Virus record (IMG/VR): IMGVR_UViG_3300028991_000027
Coordinates: 1-10,266 of that record
DNA length: 10,266 nucleotides
DNA from: a virus
Taxonomy: Duplodnaviria > Heunggongvirae > Uroviricota > Caudoviricetes
Strand: one strand, 5' to 3'
The notes beneath the pieces are model-generated. The model made no database searches. It was not told the origin of the DNA and saw only the letters and a program-made list of their open reading frames with translations. Both the position numbers and the translations under genes were made by a program. Position 1 is the first letter of the stretch, and the number at the start of each line of letters is the position of its first letter. Positions 1-10,266 of the stretch are shown here, one piece after another.

Positions 1-496
1 CGAAAGTAAGCAATCAGCGGGGCCATCACATGCTGTTTCAGTGCCCTGCCCTTCGCCTCACAGCCATCATCTTTCGGGCGATACGGCCCCTGATAATGTT
101 CCGCGAACAGAATGCGCTCTGTGGCCGGAAAATACGCCCGCAGGCTTTCCTTGTTACACCCGTTCCAGCGTCCGGGCGGCTTTGCCCAGATGATATGGTT
201 CAGCACGTTAAACCGCTCACGCATCATGATTTCGGTGTCAGATGCCAGGCGATGCCCACAGAACAGGTATAGACTTCCTGCAGGTTTCAGCACCCGCCAG
301 AACTGCGCAAGACACTGGTCCAGCCACTTCAGGTAATCTTCATCACCCGCCCACTGGTTATCCCAGCCTTCGGGTTTCACTTTAAAGTATGGTGGGTCTG
401 TGACTATCAGATCGACAGAGTTTTCCGGTAAGGTCTGGATACCAGGCAATCAGCGTTGATTAACTCACAACTGGATATTTTTACAGTGTTAGCCAT
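1..496 (-). CDS. DNA methyltransferase, beta-class N6-adenine/N4-cytosine type; 3' end beyond window; N-terminus interrupted by an apparent -1 frameshift
   Basis: Minus-strand translation from ATG at 496-494 gives MANTVKISSCELINADCLVSRPYRKTLSI then TGA at 409-407. The -1 frame opens after a TGA at 452-450 and reads LPGIQTLPENSVDLIVTDPPYFKVKPEGWDNQW... with no stop down to position 1. DPPY (motif IV) near the N-terminus, preceded by an xxDCL and SVDLIVTDPPY context, is the beta-class arrangement. Not in the ORF track because it runs off the edge. Confidence 0.6.
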
Positions 497-4107: not shown

Positions 4108-4263
4108 TTACTTCTCAGATTCGTAGTCTACGAAGACAGCGACCTCCGTCTGGCCGGTTCGGATTCGTACCTCGCAGAGGTCTTTCCTCGTTACCAGTGC
4201 CGTCACTATGACGGTTAAACAGATGACGATCAGGGCGATTAACATCGCCTTTTGCTGCTTCAT
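4108..4263 (-). CDS. hok: Hok/Gef-family type I toxin (51 aa membrane peptide)
   Basis: Translated by hand from the minus strand: MKQQKAMLIALIVICLTVIVTALVTRKDLCEVRIRTGQTEVAVFVDYESEK. It is shorter than the ORF-track cutoff. Hydrophobic N-terminus and the TRKDLCEV...GQTEVA core match the Hok family. Confidence 0.9.
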   Translation of the reverse strand: MKQQKAMLIALIVICLTVIVTALVTRKDLCEVRIRTGQTEVAVFVDYESEK

Positions 4264-4321
4264 AGTCTGCTTCTCCTTGACCTTTCGGTCCGTAAGAGGC
4301 TAACCTACGTTTGTGAAGCAT
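4115..4321 (-). CDS. mok: mok-like overlapping reading frame (68 aa) upstream of and overlapping hok
   Basis: ORF 4115..4321 begins with ATG 58 nt upstream of hok and overlaps it in another frame, as mok does in hok/sok loci. The protein itself is low-complexity; the call is positional. Confidence 0.4.
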   Translation of the reverse strand: MLHKRRLASYGPKGQGEADYEAAKGDVNRPDRHLFNRHSDGTGNEERPLRGTNPNRPDGGRCLRRLRI

Positions 4322-4380
4322 AGATTGGGCCTCAGATTAATGTTAAGCGTCTTGCAGGACGCGTAATGTTAACTGGGGCT
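4290..4380 (+). ncRNA. sok: possible sok-like antisense RNA region (position inferred, boundaries not defined)
   Basis: In hok/sok loci the antisense RNA overlaps the mok start on the opposite strand. Here I find only a weak plus-strand promoter candidate (TTGACC 4277-4282, poor -10) and a small hairpin GCGTC-ttgcag-GACGC at 4347-4362. It may be degenerate. Confidence 0.2.
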
Positions 4381-4439
4381 TTTCTCTGTCTGCCTTACGG
4401 CGGCATGCCCGAGGCAGACAGCCTCAGGCACCCGCAGCA

Positions 4440-5456: not shown

Positions 5457-5752
5457 TCACTGGTTGTCTCCTGGAAAATAACTGCATGCCCCAATTTCTC
5501 CGCCAGTGCCAGCTCTGCCTTAGCGCCCGCTGACCGCTGCCAGCCTTTCAGCATGTAAATCGCATCCACACAACGAATCATTGCCATGCAAATATCCATG
5601 TAATGTGGCTGAGTCAGCCCGTCCGGAAGTACTGCCGGGTTTAAAACGGTATGCCCTTCCCGTTTCAGCGCTTCTTCCGCCTTGTGAAACGCATCACGGT
5701 TGAAATTTTCATATCCCGTCATCGGACCAGCGATATAAATTCTCACCCTCAC
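5453..5752 (-). CDS. DUF4406-family protein (nucleoside 2-deoxyribosyltransferase-like fold, 99 aa)
   Basis: GTG start preceded by AGGAGG at 8 nt. N-terminal RIYIAGPMTGYENFN...VLNP matches the remembered DUF4406 signature. Confidence 0.7.
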   Translation of the reverse strand: MRVRIYIAGPMTGYENFNRDAFHKAEEALKREGHTVLNPAVLPDGLTQPHYMDICMAMIRCVDAIYMLKGWQRSAGAKAELALAEKLGHAVIFQETTSD

Positions 5753-6003
5753 TCCATCACCTCCTGAAAATTACCCTGACAGAACGCCAGTACACGCTGC
5801 ATGACTTCGCTATTTCGGCACTCACAGCAAATTATGTTCTTATGCCTGTCATAGCGGCGTATTTCTCCGTCTGGTAACTTTCGAATCAATGTCTGGTCAG
5901 TTGTTTTCTCCGGTGTCTTACGCCATACGCGATACACCTGTTCAGATGCAAAAACACCGTATTTACCGGACATGTATAAATCGCCACAAGCCAGTACATC
6001 CAC
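5749..6003 (-). CDS. hypothetical ORF, possibly the C-terminal part of a frameshifted gene whose N-terminus is ORF 5886..6143
   Basis: ORF track. Its stop overlaps the DUF4406 GTG start (GTGA), but neither the GTG at 6003 nor the ATG at 5973 has a recognisable SD, and it overlaps ORF 5886..6158 by about 118 nt in another frame. Confidence 0.3.
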   Translation of the reverse strand: MDVLACGDLYMSGKYGVFASEQVYRVWRKTPEKTTDQTLIRKLPDGEIRRYDRHKNIICCECRNSEVMQRVLAFCQGNFQEVME

Positions 6004-6143
6004 AAGGCAACGTCTGACTGAATGCCAGCCTGTCCCGTCGCTCTCTCCAGTTGTGATATCGTCATGCGTTCATTTTTGCGTACCAACCCGATAATTCGGG
6101 CCTTCAGTTCTTCACGCTGTTCGTGTGTAAAAGGTTTCGCCAT
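5886..6143 (-). CDS. small hypothetical protein with HTH-like N-terminus (85 aa from ATG 6143)
   Basis: ATG at 6143 is preceded by GGAGG and follows the upstream stop by 15 nt. N-terminus MAKPFTHEQREELKARIIGLVRKNERMTISQLERATGQ looks like real protein; the C-terminal 40 aa are W/Y/C/H-rich and resemble out-of-frame translation. Confidence 0.4.
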   Translation of the reverse strand: MAKPFTHEQREELKARIIGLVRKNERMTISQLERATGQAGIQSDVALWMYWLVAIYTCPVNTVFLHLNRCIAYGVRHRRKQLTRH

Positions 6144-6158
6144 AAGCGCCTCCGGCAA

Positions 6159-8649: not shown

Positions 8650-9075
8650 TTAGTGCATCACCACAGCATTCCCTGCCGGGCCGCCGCGATTCATCTGGTC
8701 ATACAAAACAACCGCTGACGCAACAAAATCGTCGACATCCTTCACCAGCCGATCCCGCCGTTCGACGATCTCACGGTAATACTCAGAACTGTGGCTGCGC
8801 ATACGGGCCACCAGCAAAGGCGGCATCGCCTTTTCGATCGCTGGTAACAGAGCCTGAATTTTTTCAACAGCATCAGGGGTGTCTTTATCCAACCAACGGA
8901 AAATTTTCTGGGTATTACGGGCCAGGGCTTCCGGATGACTGTCGTCGTACAGTTCCGGGAACGTCATCCCCAGCTCGAAATACGCTTTGGTAATTTTCGC
9001 AGCCGGTACTTTTTCGCCGTCCGGATGCGCCCAGGCATTCATCGCCATGCGGATGTGCTCATGCTTGATTTTCAT
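8650..9075 (-). CDS. YdaT-family protein (141 aa), second gene of the cro-side operon
   Basis: Complete ORF beginning MKIKHEHI...; ATGA overlap with the cro-like stop. Family assignment is from remembered similarity to Rac YdaT. Confidence 0.65.
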   Translation of the reverse strand: MKIKHEHIRMAMNAWAHPDGEKVPAAKITKAYFELGMTFPELYDDSHPEALARNTQKIFRWLDKDTPDAVEKIQALLPAIEKAMPPLLVARMRSHSSEYYREIVERRDRLVKDVDDFVASAVVLYDQMNRGGPAGNAVVMH

Positions 9076-9299
9076 GAATCACTCTTCCTTTCGCTCTGAG
9101 TGGTATCCTTCTTTTTGTAAAGCTCTGGGTTCAAAGATAATTTTCCCTTGGAGTATGCAGCAGCTTCCGCAGCTCTCCCTTTCGGAACTATTTCACCGGG
9201 GCGCTTACGCCACATGTAAATAGCTTCGCGGGTTATCCCATAAAAATCAGCGACCCTCTGAACAGAGCCAAAAAACTGAACAAGTTCATCAACTCGCAT
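9072..9299 (-). CDS. Cro-like HTH regulator, YdaS family (75 aa)
   Basis: ATG at 9299 preceded by AGGAGG. HTH segment VADFYGITREAIYMWRKR. Divergent from the CI-like gene across the operator region. Confidence 0.75.
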   Translation of the reverse strand: MRVDELVQFFGSVQRVADFYGITREAIYMWRKRPGEIVPKGRAAEAAAYSKGKLSLNPELYKKKDTTQSERKSDS

Positions 9300-9312
9300 T
9301 TCATCCTCCTAA

Positions 9313-9379
9313 AATCTAAGTATTTTTAGATTACAGGATAATTTTTTTTAGGTCAATGCAATCTAAAATAATTTATATT
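9313..9379. promoter_or_regulatory. OR-like operator/promoter region between the cro-like and cI-like genes
   Basis: O1 AATCTAAgtatttTTAGATT (9313-9332) and O2 AATCTAAaataatTTATATT (9360-9379). Minus-strand PR candidate: -35 TTGACC (plus 9351-9356), 17-nt spacer, -10 TAATCT (plus 9328-9333) overlapping O1. Plus-strand PRM candidate: -10 TATATT (9374-9379) overlapping O2, with a poor -35. Confidence 0.6.
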
Positions 9380-9395
9380 CAACTCGCGGGAGAAA

Positions 9396-10043
9396 ATGAT
9401 GGAAAGCCTTGGCATCAGGCTTAAGAAACTCAGAAAAGATAAGGGACTCACCCAAGTAGAACTGGGTAAGCTTTCAGGCGTGACCGGGGTTACTATAGGG
9501 TACTGGGAGAAAGATCTAAACGAACCCGGCAGCAAAGCTCTAAGTAAGTTAGCCCAAGCATTAGGAACTACTGAGTCCTATCTCCTGTATGGAGTATCGT
9601 CTCCTGAACTATCTTTTGTGCAGAGCAATCCAGGCACCAAGATCCCCTACTTTTCGTGGGGTGACGCGATTTCTTTCCTAATCTTAGAAGGAGAGAAAAC
9701 AATGGGAAATGTCGATAGGATCACCACATTCTTTGATGTAGTGGAAGGTGATTTTGCCGTTTCAATGCCTGATGACACTATGCATAACCCCTCAGGGTCG
9801 CCAAGTATCCCAGTTGGTGCCACTGTGATCCTAAGACCAGGAGAAAGTTATAAAAATGGCAGTATCGTCGCTGTAATAGTTCCAGATCCTCTTACAAATG
9901 AACCGTCTATGACTATAAAAAAATTAGTTATTGATGGAAAACTTGTGTATTTAAGCCCTCTCAATCCGCGCTATCAATCATCCTTGCTTACGCCAGAGTG
10001 TAAAATTGTTGCCGTAGCAAAAGGTGTACAGTTCAACCTATAA
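9396..10043 (+). CDS. CI-type prophage repressor (N-terminal HTH, C-terminal S24 LexA-like peptidase domain, 215 aa)
   Basis: HTH GLTQVELGKLSGVTGVTIGYWEKD. C-terminal domain contains candidate Ser and Lys motifs (GDFAVSM, IKKLVIDGKLVYLSPLNPRY). Divergent from the cro-like gene and flanked by operator-like sites on both sides. Confidence 0.85.
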   Translation: MMESLGIRLKKLRKDKGLTQVELGKLSGVTGVTIGYWEKDLNEPGSKALSKLAQALGTTESYLLYGVSSPELSFVQSNPGTKIPYFSWGDAISFLILEGEKTMGNVDRITTFFDVVEGDFAVSMPDDTMHNPSGSPSIPVGATVILRPGESYKNGSIVAVIVPDPLTNEPSMTIKKLVIDGKLVYLSPLNPRYQSSLLTPECKIVAVAKGVQFNL

Positions 10044-10064
10044 CCCTGCCATGTTCTTGAACTT

Positions 10065-10092
10065 AAGGTCGGTTATGTCGACCTTTTTTTTA
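10065..10092 (+). terminator. rho-independent terminator after the cI-like gene
   Basis: AAGGTCG-gttatgt-CGACCTT followed by TTTTTTT, 22 nt after the stop codon. Confidence 0.65.
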
Positions 10093-10110
10093 AATTAATT
10101 TAGATTCCTC

Positions 10111-10139
10111 TTGACTATAAAACTAAATACTTTTAGATT
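10111..10139 (+). promoter_or_regulatory. PL-like promoter with OL-like operator, directed rightward out of the window
   Basis: -35 TTGACT (10111-10116), 17-nt spacer, -10 TAGATT (10134-10139). Operator AAACTAAatacttTTAGATT (10120-10139) matches the OR consensus at 6 of 7 and 7 of 7 half-site positions; another TTAGATT sits at 10100-10106. Confidence 0.5.
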
Positions 10140-10235
10140 TGTTGTATACCAACCCACCCCGCTCCACAGAACGTCGGGCAATACCTCGAGTTACCCGGCA
10201 GTGGTCAGGGGTTAAGTAGCCAGCCCGAGGCGTAT

Positions 10236-10266
10236 GAACATGACGGCGGGAACACTTTGTATAACA
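10236..10266 (+). CDS. 5' end of an unidentified plus-strand gene running off the right edge
   Basis: ATG at 10236 preceded by GAGG 4 nt upstream, about 95 nt after the PL-like promoter. Only 10 codons (MNMTAGTLCI) are visible. Confidence 0.2.

What the first reader, a model, noticed from the sequence alone, without database searches (positions are those of the whole stretch)
9300..10140. Immunity region with a shared operator half-site on both sides of the repressor gene
Operators matching AATCTAA-N6-TTAGATT occur twice between the divergent cI-like and cro-like genes, overlapping the promoter elements, and again in the PL-like promoter downstream of cI. This defines a lambda-like OL/OR architecture for a repressor with a LexA-like autocleavage domain, implying SOS-inducibility. 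I could resolve only two clear OR sites, where lambda has three.
Basis: seen in the sequence. Interest (0 to 1): 0.4.

Follow-up and report, generated by a model that had tools for sequence, protein, structure and literature searches.

The report
Prophage immunity switch, non-cleavable repressor
This is the on/off switch of an E. coli prophage, built like that of phage P22, with five repressor-binding sites around the repressor gene; the repressor has lost the residues needed to cut itself after DNA damage, so it is probably not directly SOS-inducible.

Summary
AATCTAA-N6-TTAGATT matches lie at 9313-9332, 9360-9379, 10120-10139 and, more weakly, 10087-10106 (4 found, 0.4 expected). All four flank the repressor gene.

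Comparison with 10 related loci from six other genera refines them to 18-bp, P22-type operators (ATCTAAG-N4-CTTAGAT). It also reveals the "missing" middle site, so OR1, OR2 and OR3 are spaced 22 and 25 bp apart (23 and 25 in P22). OL1 and OL2 bracket the -35 of a PL-like promoter. OR1 and OR2 cover a conserved PR (TTGACC-17-TAATCT). A YdaT (cII-analogue) site with a PRE-like promoter sits at the cro/ydaT junction. The lambdoid OL/OR reading therefore holds.

The inference of SOS-inducibility does not hold. The C-terminal domain keeps the S24 fold and the Lys. However, the nucleophile Ser is Thr (DDTM instead of GDSM), and the Ala-Gly scissile bond is Ala-Ile. All 19 members of this clade (49-100% identity) share both losses, whereas 23 of 24 more distant relatives keep both Ala-Gly and Ser. 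No LexA-controlled antirepressor was found.

This is an ordinary lambdoid switch with a pseudo-protease repressor. It occurs in about 9% of complete E. coli genomes.

The parts
9399..10043 (+). Repressor gene (214 aa; an alternative in-frame ATG lies at 9396). It has an N-terminal HTH_3 domain of the P22 C2 / DicA type and a C-terminal S24-fold domain.
   Evidence: ORF list. Pfam HTH_3 E=1.5e-12 and Peptidase_S24 E=1.5e-10. RefSeq places the start at the position equivalent to 9399. By Foldseek, the C-terminal domain matches lambda cI CTD 1f39 (TM 0.86, rmsd 1.7 A) and the N-terminal domain matches P22 C2 at 36% identity.
9777..9779 (+). Codon ACT = Thr127, at the position of the S24 nucleophile Ser (lambda cI Ser149, LexA Ser119). 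The motif reads DDTM instead of G[DN]SM.
   Evidence: phmmer alignment to the lambda cI C-terminal domain; multiple alignments; codon checked.
9666..9671 (+). Codons GCG ATT = Ala90-Ile91, at the position of the Ala-Gly scissile bond (WGDAISF versus VQAGMF).
9918..9923 (+). Lys174-Lys175, retained at the position of the general-base Lys (lambda cI Lys192, LexA Lys156).
9072..9299 (-). cro-like gene (75 aa, P22_Cro family, related to DicC).
   Evidence: Pfam P22_Cro E=1.2e-9; NCBIfam DicC 32.5 bits, below its cut-off.
9314..9331 (.). OR1: ATCTAAG TATT TTTAGAT. It overlaps the -10 and the start site of PR.
   Evidence: 22.8 bits, rank 2; conserved in 11 loci.
9336..9353 (.). OR2 (weak): GGATAAT TTTT TTTAGGT. 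It fills the PR spacer and overlaps the PR -35 by 3 bp.
   Evidence: 8.1 bits, rank 5 of 10,249. The equivalent sites in L033, L008 and L007 match better (3-4 mismatches). Column conservation is 0.80 against 0.57-0.60 in the flanks. Taken alone it is not significant: 11.6% of shuffles of the OR region reach its score.
9361..9378 (.). OR3: ATCTAAA ATAA TTTATAT. It covers both candidate PRM -10 hexamers.
   Evidence: (25.4 bits, rank 1).
9328..9356 (-). PR: -35 TTGACC (9356..9351), 17-bp spacer, -10 TAATCT (9333..9328). It drives cro, ydaT and the replication genes.
   Evidence: Read from the sequence. The same hexamers and spacing occur in L033, L031 and L004 (TTGATC/TTGACC/TTGATG and TAATCT/TAATAT). 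The consensus scan did not list it because its -10 matches only 3 of 6.
9364..9369 (+). Candidate PRM -10, TAAAAT (the alternative is TATATT at 9374-9379). There is no good -35, so the promoter is probably activator-dependent. This is inferred, not shown.
   Evidence: CTAAAAT is invariant in 11 loci. It sits at the same position within OR3 as the annotated P22 PRM -10, TAAGAT.
10065..10093 (+). Intrinsic terminator of the repressor gene (9-bp stem plus a T run). The T run overlaps OL2.
10088..10105 (.). OL2: TTTTAAA TTAA TTTAGAT, lying 5 bp upstream of the PL -35.
   Evidence: 18.4 bits, rank 3. Equivalent sites lie 33-35 bp from OL1 in L033, L004, L006 and L007.
10121..10138 (.). OL1: AACTAAA TACT TTTAGAT. 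It fills the PL spacer and overlaps the -10.
   Evidence: 18.2 bits, rank 4.
10111..10139 (+). PL-like promoter TTGACT-17-TAGATT. In the 99.8%-identical prophage it is followed by a DUF1391 (ydfA-like) gene, a DicF-like RNA, dicB, an exonuclease gene, xis and int.
   Evidence: downstream genes; DicF-like match.
8650..9075 (-). YdaT-family gene, the functional analogue of lambda cII.
   Evidence: Pfam YdaT_toxin E=8e-11; PHROG 163, CII-like activator, E=3.5e-48; PMC9986795.
9065..9109 (+). PRE-like element. It consists of a YdaT-type inverted repeat, TTGATTTTCATGAATCAC (9065-9082), and an extended -10, TGGTATCCT (9101-9109). It points towards the repressor gene, antisense to cro. This is inferred.
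   Evidence: One mismatch to the TTGATT-N6-AATCAA motif footprinted for YdaT (PMC9986795). The site is conserved at the same junction in L033 and L036, with a -10 20-21 nt downstream.
10147..10251 (+). Conserved untranslated leader of the PL transcript (core TAAGTAGCCAGCCCGAGGCGTATGAACATGACGGC). Its function is unknown.
   Evidence: Shared at 88-96% identity with other E. coli phages of different immunity, and recognisable in Symbiopectobacterium, Arsenophonus and Yersinia loci. No Rfam match in the whole window. Consensus fold weak.

Best explanation
The interval is the immunity region of a Qin/Rac-like lambdoid prophage of E. coli, organised like immC of phage P22.

Operators. A 214-aa repressor has a P22 C2/DicA-type HTH domain and an S24-fold C-terminal domain. 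It is inferred to bind as dimers to five 18-bp operators of consensus ATCTAAG-N4-CTTAGAT.

Control at OR. OR1 and the weak OR2, presumably filled cooperatively through the C-terminal domain, occlude PR. This silences cro, the cII analogue ydaT and the replication genes. OR3 covers the -10 of the repressor's own maintenance promoter, giving negative autoregulation.

Control at OL. OL1 and OL2 bracket the -35 and cover the spacer and -10 of PL. This silences the ydfA-dicF-dicB-exonuclease-xis-int operon.

Establishment. A YdaT site with a PRE-like promoter at the cro/ydaT junction would provide establishment-phase transcription of the repressor gene.

Induction. Unlike lambda cI and P22 C2, this repressor has lost the determinants of RecA-stimulated self-cleavage: Ser to Thr, the neighbouring Gly to Asp, and Ala-Gly to Ala-Ile. 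Its S24 domain therefore most likely serves only for oligomerisation. The prophage is not induced by repressor autoproteolysis. Any induction must go through another route, such as an antirepressor or another protease, or through loss of repressor synthesis.

Status of the steps. Shown here: the sites, their positions relative to the promoters, their conservation, the fold and the residue substitutions. Inferred: binding, cooperativity, the PRM and PRE assignments, and non-cleavability.
For: Motif statistics.

Operators.
- A weight matrix trained only on other genera picks exactly the five sites as the top 5 of 10,249 positions.
- An 11-locus alignment (E. coli, Salmonella, Yersinia, Symbiopectobacterium, Arsenophonus/Phlomobacter, Xenorhabdus) conserves OR1, OR2, the PR -35 and OR3 in register.
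- Intergenic substitutions in 97%-identical variants avoid all five operators.

Promoters. PL is found by the consensus scan. The PR hexamers and their spacing are conserved.

Comparison with P22. The annotated P22 operators are 18 bp with the same TAAG/CTTA core. Their OR spacings are 23 and 25 bp. P22 OL1 and OL2 lie 35 bp apart, around the PL -35.

Domains. Pfam and structure matches.

Loss of cleavage determinants.
- Alignments to lambda cI and LexA.
- A table of 47 homologues: all 19 clade members have DDTM and a non-Gly P1' residue; 23 of 24 distant relatives have both AG and G[DK]SM, and one has Ala-Asp.
- Among 88 representatives of 50%-identity clusters, 19 of the 21 that lack Ser also lack an A/C-G in the linker. 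By contrast, 40 of the 62 with Ser and Lys have one.

Absence of a LexA-controlled partner. No antirepressor is annotated, and no LexA box lies next to a candidate gene, in the whole UTAK-6 prophage or in the stretches read of two other prophages with this repressor. Two diverged loci, L031 and L033, also have no LexA box.

Occurrence. The repressor is found in 474 of 5,426 complete E. coli genomes. It is in only 2 of 50,697 phage records. I take both of those to be predicted prophage regions, from their names and 'partial genome' titles.
Against: - Nothing here is experimental: repressor binding, cooperativity and non-cleavability are all inferred.
- DDTM and KK are invariant across the clade. 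The pocket is therefore still under selection, and a Thr-Lys dyad is chemically conceivable.
- OR2 is weak in this window (8.1 bits), and 11.6% of shuffles of the OR region reach that score somewhere.
- The training sites for the weight matrix were chosen by similarity to the same consensus, so the test is not fully independent.
- The PRM -10 is ambiguous (TAAAAT or TATATT).
- Small unannotated antirepressors, or ones supplied by another prophage, cannot be excluded.
- The rarity among phage records could reflect sampling rather than non-inducibility.
Confidence: 0.72

Rival explanations
1. One reading: the repressor is a functional LexA-like autoprotease. RecA filaments formed after DNA damage stimulate self-cleavage, so the prophage is directly SOS-inducible, as lambda and P22 are. 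This would need a Thr-Lys dyad cutting a non-canonical bond.
For: - The S24 fold is intact and the Lys is retained.
- Ala at P1 is kept in 18 of the 19 clade members.
- DDTM is invariant in the clade, which shows continued constraint on the pocket.
Against: - The Ser nucleophile is replaced by Thr in every clade member.
- The P1' Gly is replaced by variable bulky or charged residues (I, M, T, K, V).
- The Gly two residues before the nucleophile is Asp.
- From my recollection of the published Ind- mutants of LexA (G85D, S119A) and lambda cI (G112E, S149F), substitutions at these positions abolish cleavage. PDB entry titles list LEXA G85D and S119A mutants, but not their phenotypes.
- The determinants are lost together, both in this clade and across the wider family. 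That pattern is expected when cleavage has been abandoned.
Confidence: 0.1
2. The repressor is non-cleavable, but the prophage is still SOS-inducible indirectly. A LexA-controlled antirepressor, encoded elsewhere in this prophage or by a co-resident prophage, binds and inactivates the repressor. Precedents are Gifsy-1/2/3, coliphage 186 (Tum) and N15 (AntC).
For: - The mechanism is established for non-cleavable repressors, including action in trans between prophages (PMC3121763).
- UTAK-6 has matches to the query region at seven places in its chromosome, consistent with several lambdoid prophages.
- A truncated DinI-like pseudogene lies at the far end of this prophage. In the Gifsy prophages, dinI heads the antirepressor operon.
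- A LexA-like box occurs in the window at 469-488 (about 0.0045 expected per window).
Against: - No antirepressor is annotated in the whole UTAK-6 prophage or in the stretches read of the other two prophages.
- The only LexA-like box lies inside codons 3-9 of a DNA methyltransferase gene, not upstream of a small ORF.
- The 36.7-kb prophage record with the identical repressor has no LexA box at all.
- No third gene is consistently linked to the repressor and cro across the clade.
Confidence: 0.3
3. The repressor is a permanently locked silencer of a domesticated prophage, comparable to DicA of Qin, RacR of Rac or PaaR2 of CP-933P. It keeps toxic early genes (dicB, dicF, ydaT, kil-type functions) off and has no dedicated induction pathway. 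Derepression happens only stochastically or on transfer to a naive cell.
For: - The left operon carries dicB and a DicF-like RNA.
- The HTH domain is most similar to DicA among NCBIfam models, and the cro-like protein to DicC.
- PaaR2, a cI analogue without the peptidase motif, does not respond to mitomycin C (PMC8630535).
- The immunity type is common in genomes but absent from isolated phages in the collection.
Against: - The UTAK-6 and 503025 prophages look largely complete: integrase, excisionase, replication, Q, lysis, terminase, portal, capsid and tail genes.
- The clade persists in many genera on different phage backbones. This argues for active, transmissible phages.
Confidence: 0.2
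4. The motif matches are not operators. They are chance palindromes in AT-rich intergenic DNA, or merely promoter elements.
For: - The intergenic regions are AT-rich.
- The half-site TTAGAT resembles a -10 hexamer.
- OR2 alone is not significant.
Against: - One site is a perfect 14/14 palindrome, and 4 sites are found where 0.4 are expected.
- The same five positions are conserved in register across seven genera, while the flanks diverge.
- The geometry matches the experimentally defined P22 operators.
- Substitutions avoid the sites.
Confidence: 0.03

Closest known systems
Phage P22 immC region (c2 repressor, OR/PR/PRM, cro, c1; OL/PL)
   Same: - The repressor has the same two-domain architecture and nearly the same length (214 versus 216 aa).
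- The HTH domain is the best PDB sequence match (E=3.3e-7) and shows 36% identity in the structural alignment.
- The operators are 18 bp, 7-N4-7, with a TAAG...CTTA core.
- There are three OR sites, with centres 22 and 25 bp apart (23 and 25 in P22).
- OL1 fills the PL spacer and -10, and OL2 lies 33 bp away on the other side of the -35 (35 bp in P22).
- An establishment promoter with an activator site lies at the start of the cII-analogue gene.
   Different: - The half-site sequence differs (ATCTAAG versus P22 A[TC]T[AT]AAG), as do recognition-helix residues, so the two phages are expected to be heteroimmune.
- Only two OL sites could be found, against three in P22.
- The repressor gene has a Shine-Dalgarno leader of about 20 nt.
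- The activator is a YdaT-family protein, not C1/CII.
- No N/gene-24 antiterminator follows PL. Instead there is a conserved leader and then the ydfA-dicB genes.
- P22 C2 has Ala-Gly and GDSM (visible), whereas this repressor has Ala-Ile and DDTM.
Lambda cI with OR/OL
   Same: - Divergent cI and cro genes with a tripartite OR. I calculate 47 bp from the OR1 centre to the OR3 centre in both.
- A second operator cluster at PL, downstream of the repressor gene.
- The C-terminal domain superposes on the lambda cI C-terminal domain (1f39: TM 0.86, rmsd 1.7 A).
   Different: - Lambda operators are 17 bp and the lambda HTH domain is of a different subfamily.
- Lambda has three adjacent OL sites.
- Lambda's PRM transcript is leaderless.
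- Lambda cI is cleaved at Ala111-Gly112 by Ser149/Lys192. Here the aligned residues are Ala90-Ile91 and Thr127/Lys174-175.
DicA/DicC of prophage Qin, and RacR/YdaS/YdaT and PaaR2/YdaS/YdaT of Rac-like prophages
   Same: - The prophage backbone is the same: ydaT, DnaC-like gene, DUF1627, hok/sok, DUF968, rusA and Q on one side, and ydfA, dicF, dicB, exonuclease, xis and int on the other.
- The HTH domain hits the DicA model and the cro-like protein hits the DicC model.
- A YdaT site lies at the cro/ydaT junction, as footprinted in CP-933P (PMC9986795).
- Repression is not linked to repressor self-cleavage (PMC8630535).
   Different: - DicA (model length 135), RacR and PaaR2 are short proteins without an S24 domain. 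Here the full S24 fold is retained as a pseudo-protease.
- The scores to the DicA and DicC models are far below their cut-offs (44.7 versus 101, and 32.5 versus 130).
- The operator sequence differs from the GTTTAGTAA repeats reported for PaaR2.
Antirepressor-controlled non-cleavable repressors (Gifsy GfoR/GtgR/GfhR; 186 CI-Tum; N15 CB-AntC)
   Same: The repressor lacks the signature for autocatalytic cleavage. This is a plausible model for how such a prophage could still respond to SOS (PMC3121763).
   Different: - Those repressors lack the S24 domain altogether.
- Their LexA-boxed antirepressor operon is identifiable in the prophage, whereas none was found here.

Membership tests
Lambdoid (lambda/P22-type) immunity region with OR and OL operators | Divergent repressor and cro genes separated by a short intergenic region that carries repeated palindromic operators. 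| tested here: met
   A 99-bp intergenic region lies between cro (9072-9299, -) and the repressor gene (9399-10043, +). OR1 and OR3 score 22.8 and 25.4 bits.
Lambdoid (lambda/P22-type) immunity region with OR and OL operators | A tripartite OR, with a third, intrinsically weaker middle site. | tested here: inconclusive
   The site at 9336-9353 scores 8.1 bits and ranks fifth in the window. Its position is conserved in 11 loci and it matches better in L033, L007 and L008. Alone it is not significant: 11.6% of shuffles reach its score. Occupancy needs a footprint.
Lambdoid (lambda/P22-type) immunity region with OR and OL operators | Operators overlap the core elements of the two early promoters, PR and PL. 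| tested here: met
   OR1 overlaps the PR -10 by 4 bp and covers the start site. OR2 fills the PR spacer and overlaps the -35 by 3 bp. OL1 fills the PL spacer and overlaps the -10 by 5 bp.
Lambdoid (lambda/P22-type) immunity region with OR and OL operators | A second operator cluster at a promoter downstream of the repressor gene, reading in the same direction. | tested here: met
   OL2 (10088-10105) and OL1 (10121-10138) lie around TTGACT-17-TAGATT, after the repressor terminator. The 33-35 bp spacing is conserved in five loci.
Lambdoid (lambda/P22-type) immunity region with OR and OL operators | The repressor and Cro bind these sites, and the repressor binds cooperatively. | not testable with these tools
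   This needs EMSA or DNase I footprinting with purified proteins.
Self-cleaving S24 (LexA / lambda cI / P22 C2 / UmuD) family | A C-terminal S24 beta-fold domain. | tested here: met
   Pfam Peptidase_S24 at 41.2 bits against a cut-off of 23.3. Foldseek matches to the lambda cI C-terminal domain, LexA and UmuD', all with probability 1.00.
Self-cleaving S24 (LexA / lambda cI / P22 C2 / UmuD) family | A serine nucleophile in the G-x-S-M motif. | tested here: not met
   Thr127 (ACT, 9777-9779) aligns with lambda cI Ser149 and LexA Ser119. The motif is DDTM in all 19 clade members.
Self-cleaving S24 (LexA / lambda cI / P22 C2 / UmuD) family | A lysine general base. | tested here: met
   Lys174-Lys175 align with the FKKL motif of lambda cI and the VKRL motif of LexA, and are invariant in the family.
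Self-cleaving S24 (LexA / lambda cI / P22 C2 / UmuD) family | An Ala-Gly or Cys-Gly scissile bond in the linker. | tested here: not met
   Ala90-Ile91 is found where relatives have VQAG. No clade member has Gly at P1'.
Self-cleaving S24 (LexA / lambda cI / P22 C2 / UmuD) family | RecA-stimulated or alkaline autodigestion. | not testable with these tools
   This is a biochemical assay.
P22 C2-type repressor/operator specificity group | An HTH domain homologous to that of P22 C2, and 18-bp 7-N4-7 operators with a TAAG/CTTA core. | tested here: met
   The P22 C2 N-terminal domain is the best PDB sequence hit, E=3.3e-7. The operator form was compared with the annotated P22 OR1-3.
P22 C2-type repressor/operator specificity group | The same immunity specificity as P22. 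| not testable with these tools
   The outer half-site positions and the recognition-helix residues differ, so heteroimmunity is expected. It needs a cross-immunity test.
Antirepressor-induced prophages (Gifsy, 186, N15 type) | A LexA-box-controlled antirepressor gene in the prophage. | tested here: inconclusive
   No antirepressor is annotated, and no LexA box lies upstream of a small ORF, in the whole UTAK-6 prophage (L001, L034), in L002, in L039 or in L031 and L033. The only LexA-like box lies inside a methyltransferase gene. Unannotated antirepressors, or ones acting in trans, are not excluded.

The most novel reading that the evidence does not exclude
A clade of full-length P22/lambda-type repressors is present in about 9% of complete E. 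coli genomes and in at least six other genera of Enterobacterales. It has turned its S24 self-cleavage domain into a pseudo-protease, but keeps an invariant DDTM...KK pocket under selection. On this reading the pocket is not a fossil. It would be either the sensor surface for an inducer not yet described (a dedicated antirepressor, a host protease or a small molecule), or a Thr-Lys catalytic site with a new cleavage specificity. These prophages would then have an induction trigger different from the RecA-autocleavage paradigm.
Probability: 0.2. Interest if true: 0.65.

Novelty: new variant of a known kind. Interest (0 to 1): 0.35.

Why it matters
The alignment shows that this conclusion cannot be drawn from the presence of the domain. 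Here the nucleophile and the scissile bond are both gone. In a sample of 88 relatives representing 50%-identity clusters, about a quarter lack the Ser.

This immunity type guards a dicB/dicF cell-division-inhibitor operon and sits in roughly one complete E. coli genome in eleven. Whether DNA-damaging antibiotics wake it therefore bears on predictions of prophage induction and of gene transfer.

The five-operator map, with its P22-like geometry, gives ready-made targets for footprinting and reporter assays.

Tried and rejected
- **Put-like antiterminator RNA.** I asked whether the conserved leader downstream of PL (10147-10251) is a put-like RNA or a known RNA family. Rfam at gathering thresholds gives no hit there. 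RNAalifold on five sequences gives only -6.6 kcal/mol, and 3 of 14 predicted pairs have compensatory changes. blastn against the phage collection does not recover HK022. The idea is not supported.
- **LexA-controlled antirepressor.** Scans for CTG-N10-CAG boxes in the window, the whole UTAK-6 prophage, two other E. coli prophages and seven diverged loci found only one box type, inside a methyltransferase gene. PHROG and Pfam scans of the window's small ORFs found no Ant, Rha, KilA-C or Tum family.
- **Modelling the cleavage-site linker.** AlphaFold2 models were made of this repressor and of a canonical Ala-Gly/Ser relative, to see whether the linker is remodelled. Both predict a short helix there, so the comparison is uninformative.
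- **Literature on the two phage records.** Searches for the two phage records that carry this repressor (689R5, 606R7) found nothing. Their names and 'partial genome' status suggest predicted prophage regions, so they are not evidence of inducibility.
- **A third OL site.** The only candidate (10061-10078, 5 mismatches) lies in the terminator stem and scores poorly with the weight matrix.
- **PR in the promoter scan.** The consensus scan does not list PR, because TAATCT matches only 3 of 6 positions. I accepted PR on the basis of its conserved hexamers and spacing.
Full report
**What the window is.**
The window is part of a lambdoid prophage of E. coli. Bases 9000-10266 are 99.8% identical to a prophage inserted at ompW in E. 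coli UTAK-6. The same 1.27-kb stretch is present over at least 80% of its length in 474 of 5,426 complete E. coli genomes.

The gene order on the minus strand is as follows:
- cro-like gene (9072-9299)
- YdaT-family cII analogue (8650-9075)
- O-like and DnaC-like replication genes
- DUF1627, DUF977, DUF4406
- hok/sok
- DUF968, rusA and Q

The repressor gene (9399-10043) lies on the plus strand. In UTAK-6 it is followed by a DUF1391 (ydfA-like) gene, a DicF-like RNA, dicB, an exonuclease gene, xis and int. This is the Qin/Rac type of backbone.

**The observation.**
The pattern AATCTAA-N6-TTAGATT, with up to 3 mismatches, occurs four times in the window:
- 9313-9332 (perfect)
- 9360-9379 (1 mismatch)
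- 10120-10139 (1 mismatch)
- 10087-10106 (3 mismatches)

The expectation is 0.40, and none of 200 shuffles reached four. Five of the seven exact TTAGATT heptamers lie in the two intergenic regions that flank the repressor gene.

**Refining the operators by comparison.**
I collected related loci as follows:
- One scan of representative genomes with a family alignment gave 28 loci.
- Look-ups of individual homologues added Salmonella (66% identity), an unassigned contig (68%), Symbiopectobacterium, Yersinia and others.

In 11 loci the region between cro and the repressor gene aligns in register. It shows three conserved blocks of the form ATCTAAG-N4-CTTAGAT; the Xenorhabdus locus L008 has the perfect palindrome. 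Between the second and third block lies a conserved TCAAT, which reads as TTGA on the other strand.

In the window the three sites are:
- OR1, 9314-9331
- OR2, 9336-9353 (GGATAAT TTTT TTTAGGT, weak)
- OR3, 9361-9378

Their centres are 22 and 25 bp apart.

Downstream of the repressor terminator (10065-10093) lie OL2 (10088-10105) and OL1 (10121-10138). Their centres are 33 bp apart, and 33-35 bp apart in four other loci.

A weight matrix built only from sites in other genera ranks these five positions as the top five of all 10,249 18-mers in the window. The scores are 25.4, 22.8, 18.4, 18.2 and 8.1 bits, and the next best is 5.1. OR2 alone is weak: 11.6% of shuffles of the OR region reach its score. 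Its support comes from conservation of position (column conservation 0.80, against 0.57-0.60 in the flanks).

In the 97%-identical variants L002 and L003, nine substitutions fall in the two intergenic regions and none falls in the 90 nt occupied by operators. I calculate (112/202)^9, about 0.005, for that outcome.

**Promoters.**
PL is TTGACT-17-TAGATT (10111-10139, +). It is the only intergenic promoter found by the consensus scan. OL1 fills its spacer and overlaps its -10, and OL2 lies just upstream of its -35.

PR, on the minus strand, is TTGACC (9356..9351), a 17-bp spacer and TAATCT (9333..9328). The same hexamers and spacing recur in L033, L031 and L004. OR1 overlaps the PR -10 and start site. 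OR2 fills the spacer and touches the -35.

The maintenance promoter of the repressor gene is not resolved. There are two candidates for its -10:
- TAAAAT (9364-9369) is invariant in all 11 loci. It occupies the same position within OR3 as the annotated P22 PRM -10.
- TATATT (9374-9379) is the alternative.

Neither has a good -35, as expected for an activator-dependent promoter, and OR3 covers both.

At the cro/ydaT junction, TTGATTTTCATGAATCAC (9065-9082) differs at one position from the TTGATT-N6-AATCAA repeat footprinted for YdaT at the same junction in CP-933P (PMC9986795). It is conserved in L033 and L036. An extended -10 follows 20-21 nt downstream and points towards the repressor gene. 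This is a PRE-like arrangement, and it is inferred.

**Closest known system.**
The HTH domain's best match among solved structures is P22 C2 (E=3.3e-7; 36% identity in the Foldseek alignment).

The annotated P22 operators read ATTAAAGAACACTTAAAT, ACTAAAGGAATCTTTAGT and ATTTAAGATGACTTAACT. These are also 18-bp, 7-N4-7 sites with a TAAG/CTTA core, and their centres are 23 and 25 bp apart. P22 OL1 and OL2 lie 35 bp apart, on either side of the PL -35. The geometry here is therefore P22-like rather than specifically lambda-like, although I calculate the OR1-to-OR3 distance of 47 bp to be the same in all three. NCBIfam also shows sub-threshold similarity to DicA and DicC of Qin.

**The repressor's C-terminal domain.**
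Pfam places a Peptidase_S24 domain at residues 115-207, but the match starts at profile position 31. The AlphaFold2 model (mean pLDDT 77.5) superposes on the lambda cI C-terminal domain (1f39: TM 0.86, rmsd 1.7 A), and on LexA and UmuD'. The fold is therefore intact.

The cleavage determinants are not. The table compares this repressor with lambda cI (phmmer alignment; multiple alignments with lambda cI, LexA and homologues).

| Feature | Lambda cI | This repressor |
|---|---|---|
| Nucleophile motif | FWLEVEGNSMTAPTG | FAVSMPDDTMHNPSG |
| Nucleophile | Ser149 | Thr127 |
| Residue two before the nucleophile | Gly | Asp |
| Cleavage-site region | VQAGMF (Ala-Gly) | GDAISF (Ala90-Ile91) |
| General base | FKKL | IKKL, retained |

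The 47 homologues fall into three groups:
- All 19 sequences of the clade containing this protein have DDTM and a non-Gly P1' residue (I, M, T, K or V). They span 49-100% identity and come from E. coli, Salmonella, Yersinia, Symbiopectobacterium, Sodalis and Arsenophonus/Phlomobacter.
- Four Xenorhabdus sequences have lost Ala-Gly but keep Ser.
- Of 24 more distant relatives (29-46% identity), 23 have both Ala-Gly and G[DK]SM, and one has Ala-Asp.

The pattern holds in the exhaustive search of representatives of 50%-identity clusters. Of 88 full-length relatives, 67 have Ser and 21 do not (7 Thr, 6 Ala and others). Nineteen of those 21 also lack an Ala/Cys-Gly in the linker, whereas 40 of the 62 with Ser and Lys have one. 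Joint loss is what one expects once cleavage is abandoned.

From my recollection of the published work on Ind- mutants, substitutions at the scissile Gly and at the Ser abolish cleavage in LexA and lambda cI. I therefore judge self-cleavage unlikely, at about 10%.

The invariance of DDTM and KK within the clade shows that the pocket remains constrained. I cannot explain that, and it keeps a more novel reading open.

**How the prophage might be induced.**
I looked for the known alternative, a LexA-controlled antirepressor (Gifsy, 186, N15; PMC3121763).
- No antirepressor is annotated in the complete UTAK-6 prophage or in the stretches read of the prophages in strain 503025 and record 689R5.
- No antirepressor family is hit by the window's ORFs.
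- LexA-box scans find a single site type: CACTGTAAAAATATCCAGTT on the minus strand at 469-488. About 0.0045 such sites are expected per window. It lies in codons 3-9 of a DNA methyltransferase gene, and is conserved there in two other prophages.
- The 36.7-kb record with the identical repressor has no LexA box.
- A truncated DinI-like pseudogene sits at the far end of the UTAK-6 prophage.

An antirepressor supplied in trans, or an unannotated small one, remains possible.

Only two of 50,697 phage records carry this repressor, and I take both to be predicted prophage regions; the next best hit is 42% identical. That rarity is weak evidence, and it is consistent with poor inducibility.

Published work already recognises that many cI-like repressors are not autoproteolytic. 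Silpe et al. predicted this for 210 of 271 (PMC10432266). PaaR2 is another example (PMC8630535). The concept is therefore not new. What is specific here is a full-length S24 pseudo-protease in a common E. coli immunity type.

**Verdict.**
- The lambda-like OL/OR interpretation is supported, and is better described as P22-like.
- The inference of SOS-inducibility from the S24 domain is not supported.
- The region is an ordinary lambdoid switch with a non-canonical repressor. Interest is moderate to low.

Noticed in passing
window 469-488 (minus strand CACTGTAAAAATATCCAGTT); also L001 11553-11572 and L039 9352-9371: A good LexA-box-like sequence (CTGT-N8-CCAG, 4-5 mismatches to the 20-bp consensus) lies in codons 3-9 of a DNA methyltransferase gene that runs off the left end of the window, downstream of Q. 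About 0.0045 such sites are expected per window. It is conserved in three prophages, with only synonymous changes. It might put the methylase, or a promoter internal to the late region, under SOS control, or it might be a by-product of the coding sequence.
   Followed up: partly
window 10147-10251: A conserved non-coding leader of about 105 nt lies just downstream of PL (core TAAGTAGCCAGCCCGAGGCGTATGAACATGACGGC). It is shared at 88-96% identity with E. coli phages of other immunity types, at about 80% with an Actinobacillus phage, and is recognisable in Symbiopectobacterium, Arsenophonus and Yersinia loci. No N-like gene follows PL, so an RNA-based antitermination or processing element is conceivable. 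There is no Rfam hit, and only a weak consensus fold.
   Followed up: partly
window 9065-9109: A YdaT-type inverted repeat (1 mismatch to TTGATT-N6-AATCAA) lies exactly at the cro stop / ydaT start. An extended -10 (TGGTATCCT) follows 18 nt after its end and faces the repressor gene. This is a PRE-like establishment promoter, conserved in L033 and L036.
   Followed up: partly
window 5749-6158 (minus strand): The DUF977/Ren-like gene is split into two overlapping ORFs (5749-6003 and 5886-6158). Each matches a different part of PHROG 142. In UTAK-6 the gene is a single 396-nt CDS. This is probably a frameshift in the window's copy.
   Followed up: no
window 4108-4433 (minus strand): A hok/sok type I toxin-antitoxin module: a Hok/Gef ORF at 4108-4263, and sok RNA (Rfam RF01794, 103.9 bits) at 4261-4433.
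   Followed up: no
L001 21138 (equivalent to window 10137): The UTAK-6 copy, otherwise 99.8% identical, has A>G in the right half of OL1, which is also the PL -10 (TAGATT becomes TAGGTT). This single change should weaken both the promoter and the operator.
   Followed up: no
L003 (JAIHTM010000357.1, labelled Collinsella sp. MAG): A 1.8-kb contig binned as an actinobacterial Collinsella MAG encodes a repressor 100% identical to this E. coli prophage repressor, and its DNA is about 97.5% identical. It is almost certainly a binning contaminant.
   Followed up: no
proteins P0021-P0167, relatives of the repressor: Loss of the S24 nucleophile is recurrent in HTH-S24 repressors. Of 88 full-length representatives of 50%-identity clusters, 21 lack Ser (7 Thr, 6 Ala, 2 Val and others), usually together with loss of the Ala/Cys-Gly. 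The same search also returned very long proteins with many tandem HTH_3 repeats, for example P0021 (2,332 aa, 18 matched stretches).
   Followed up: partly
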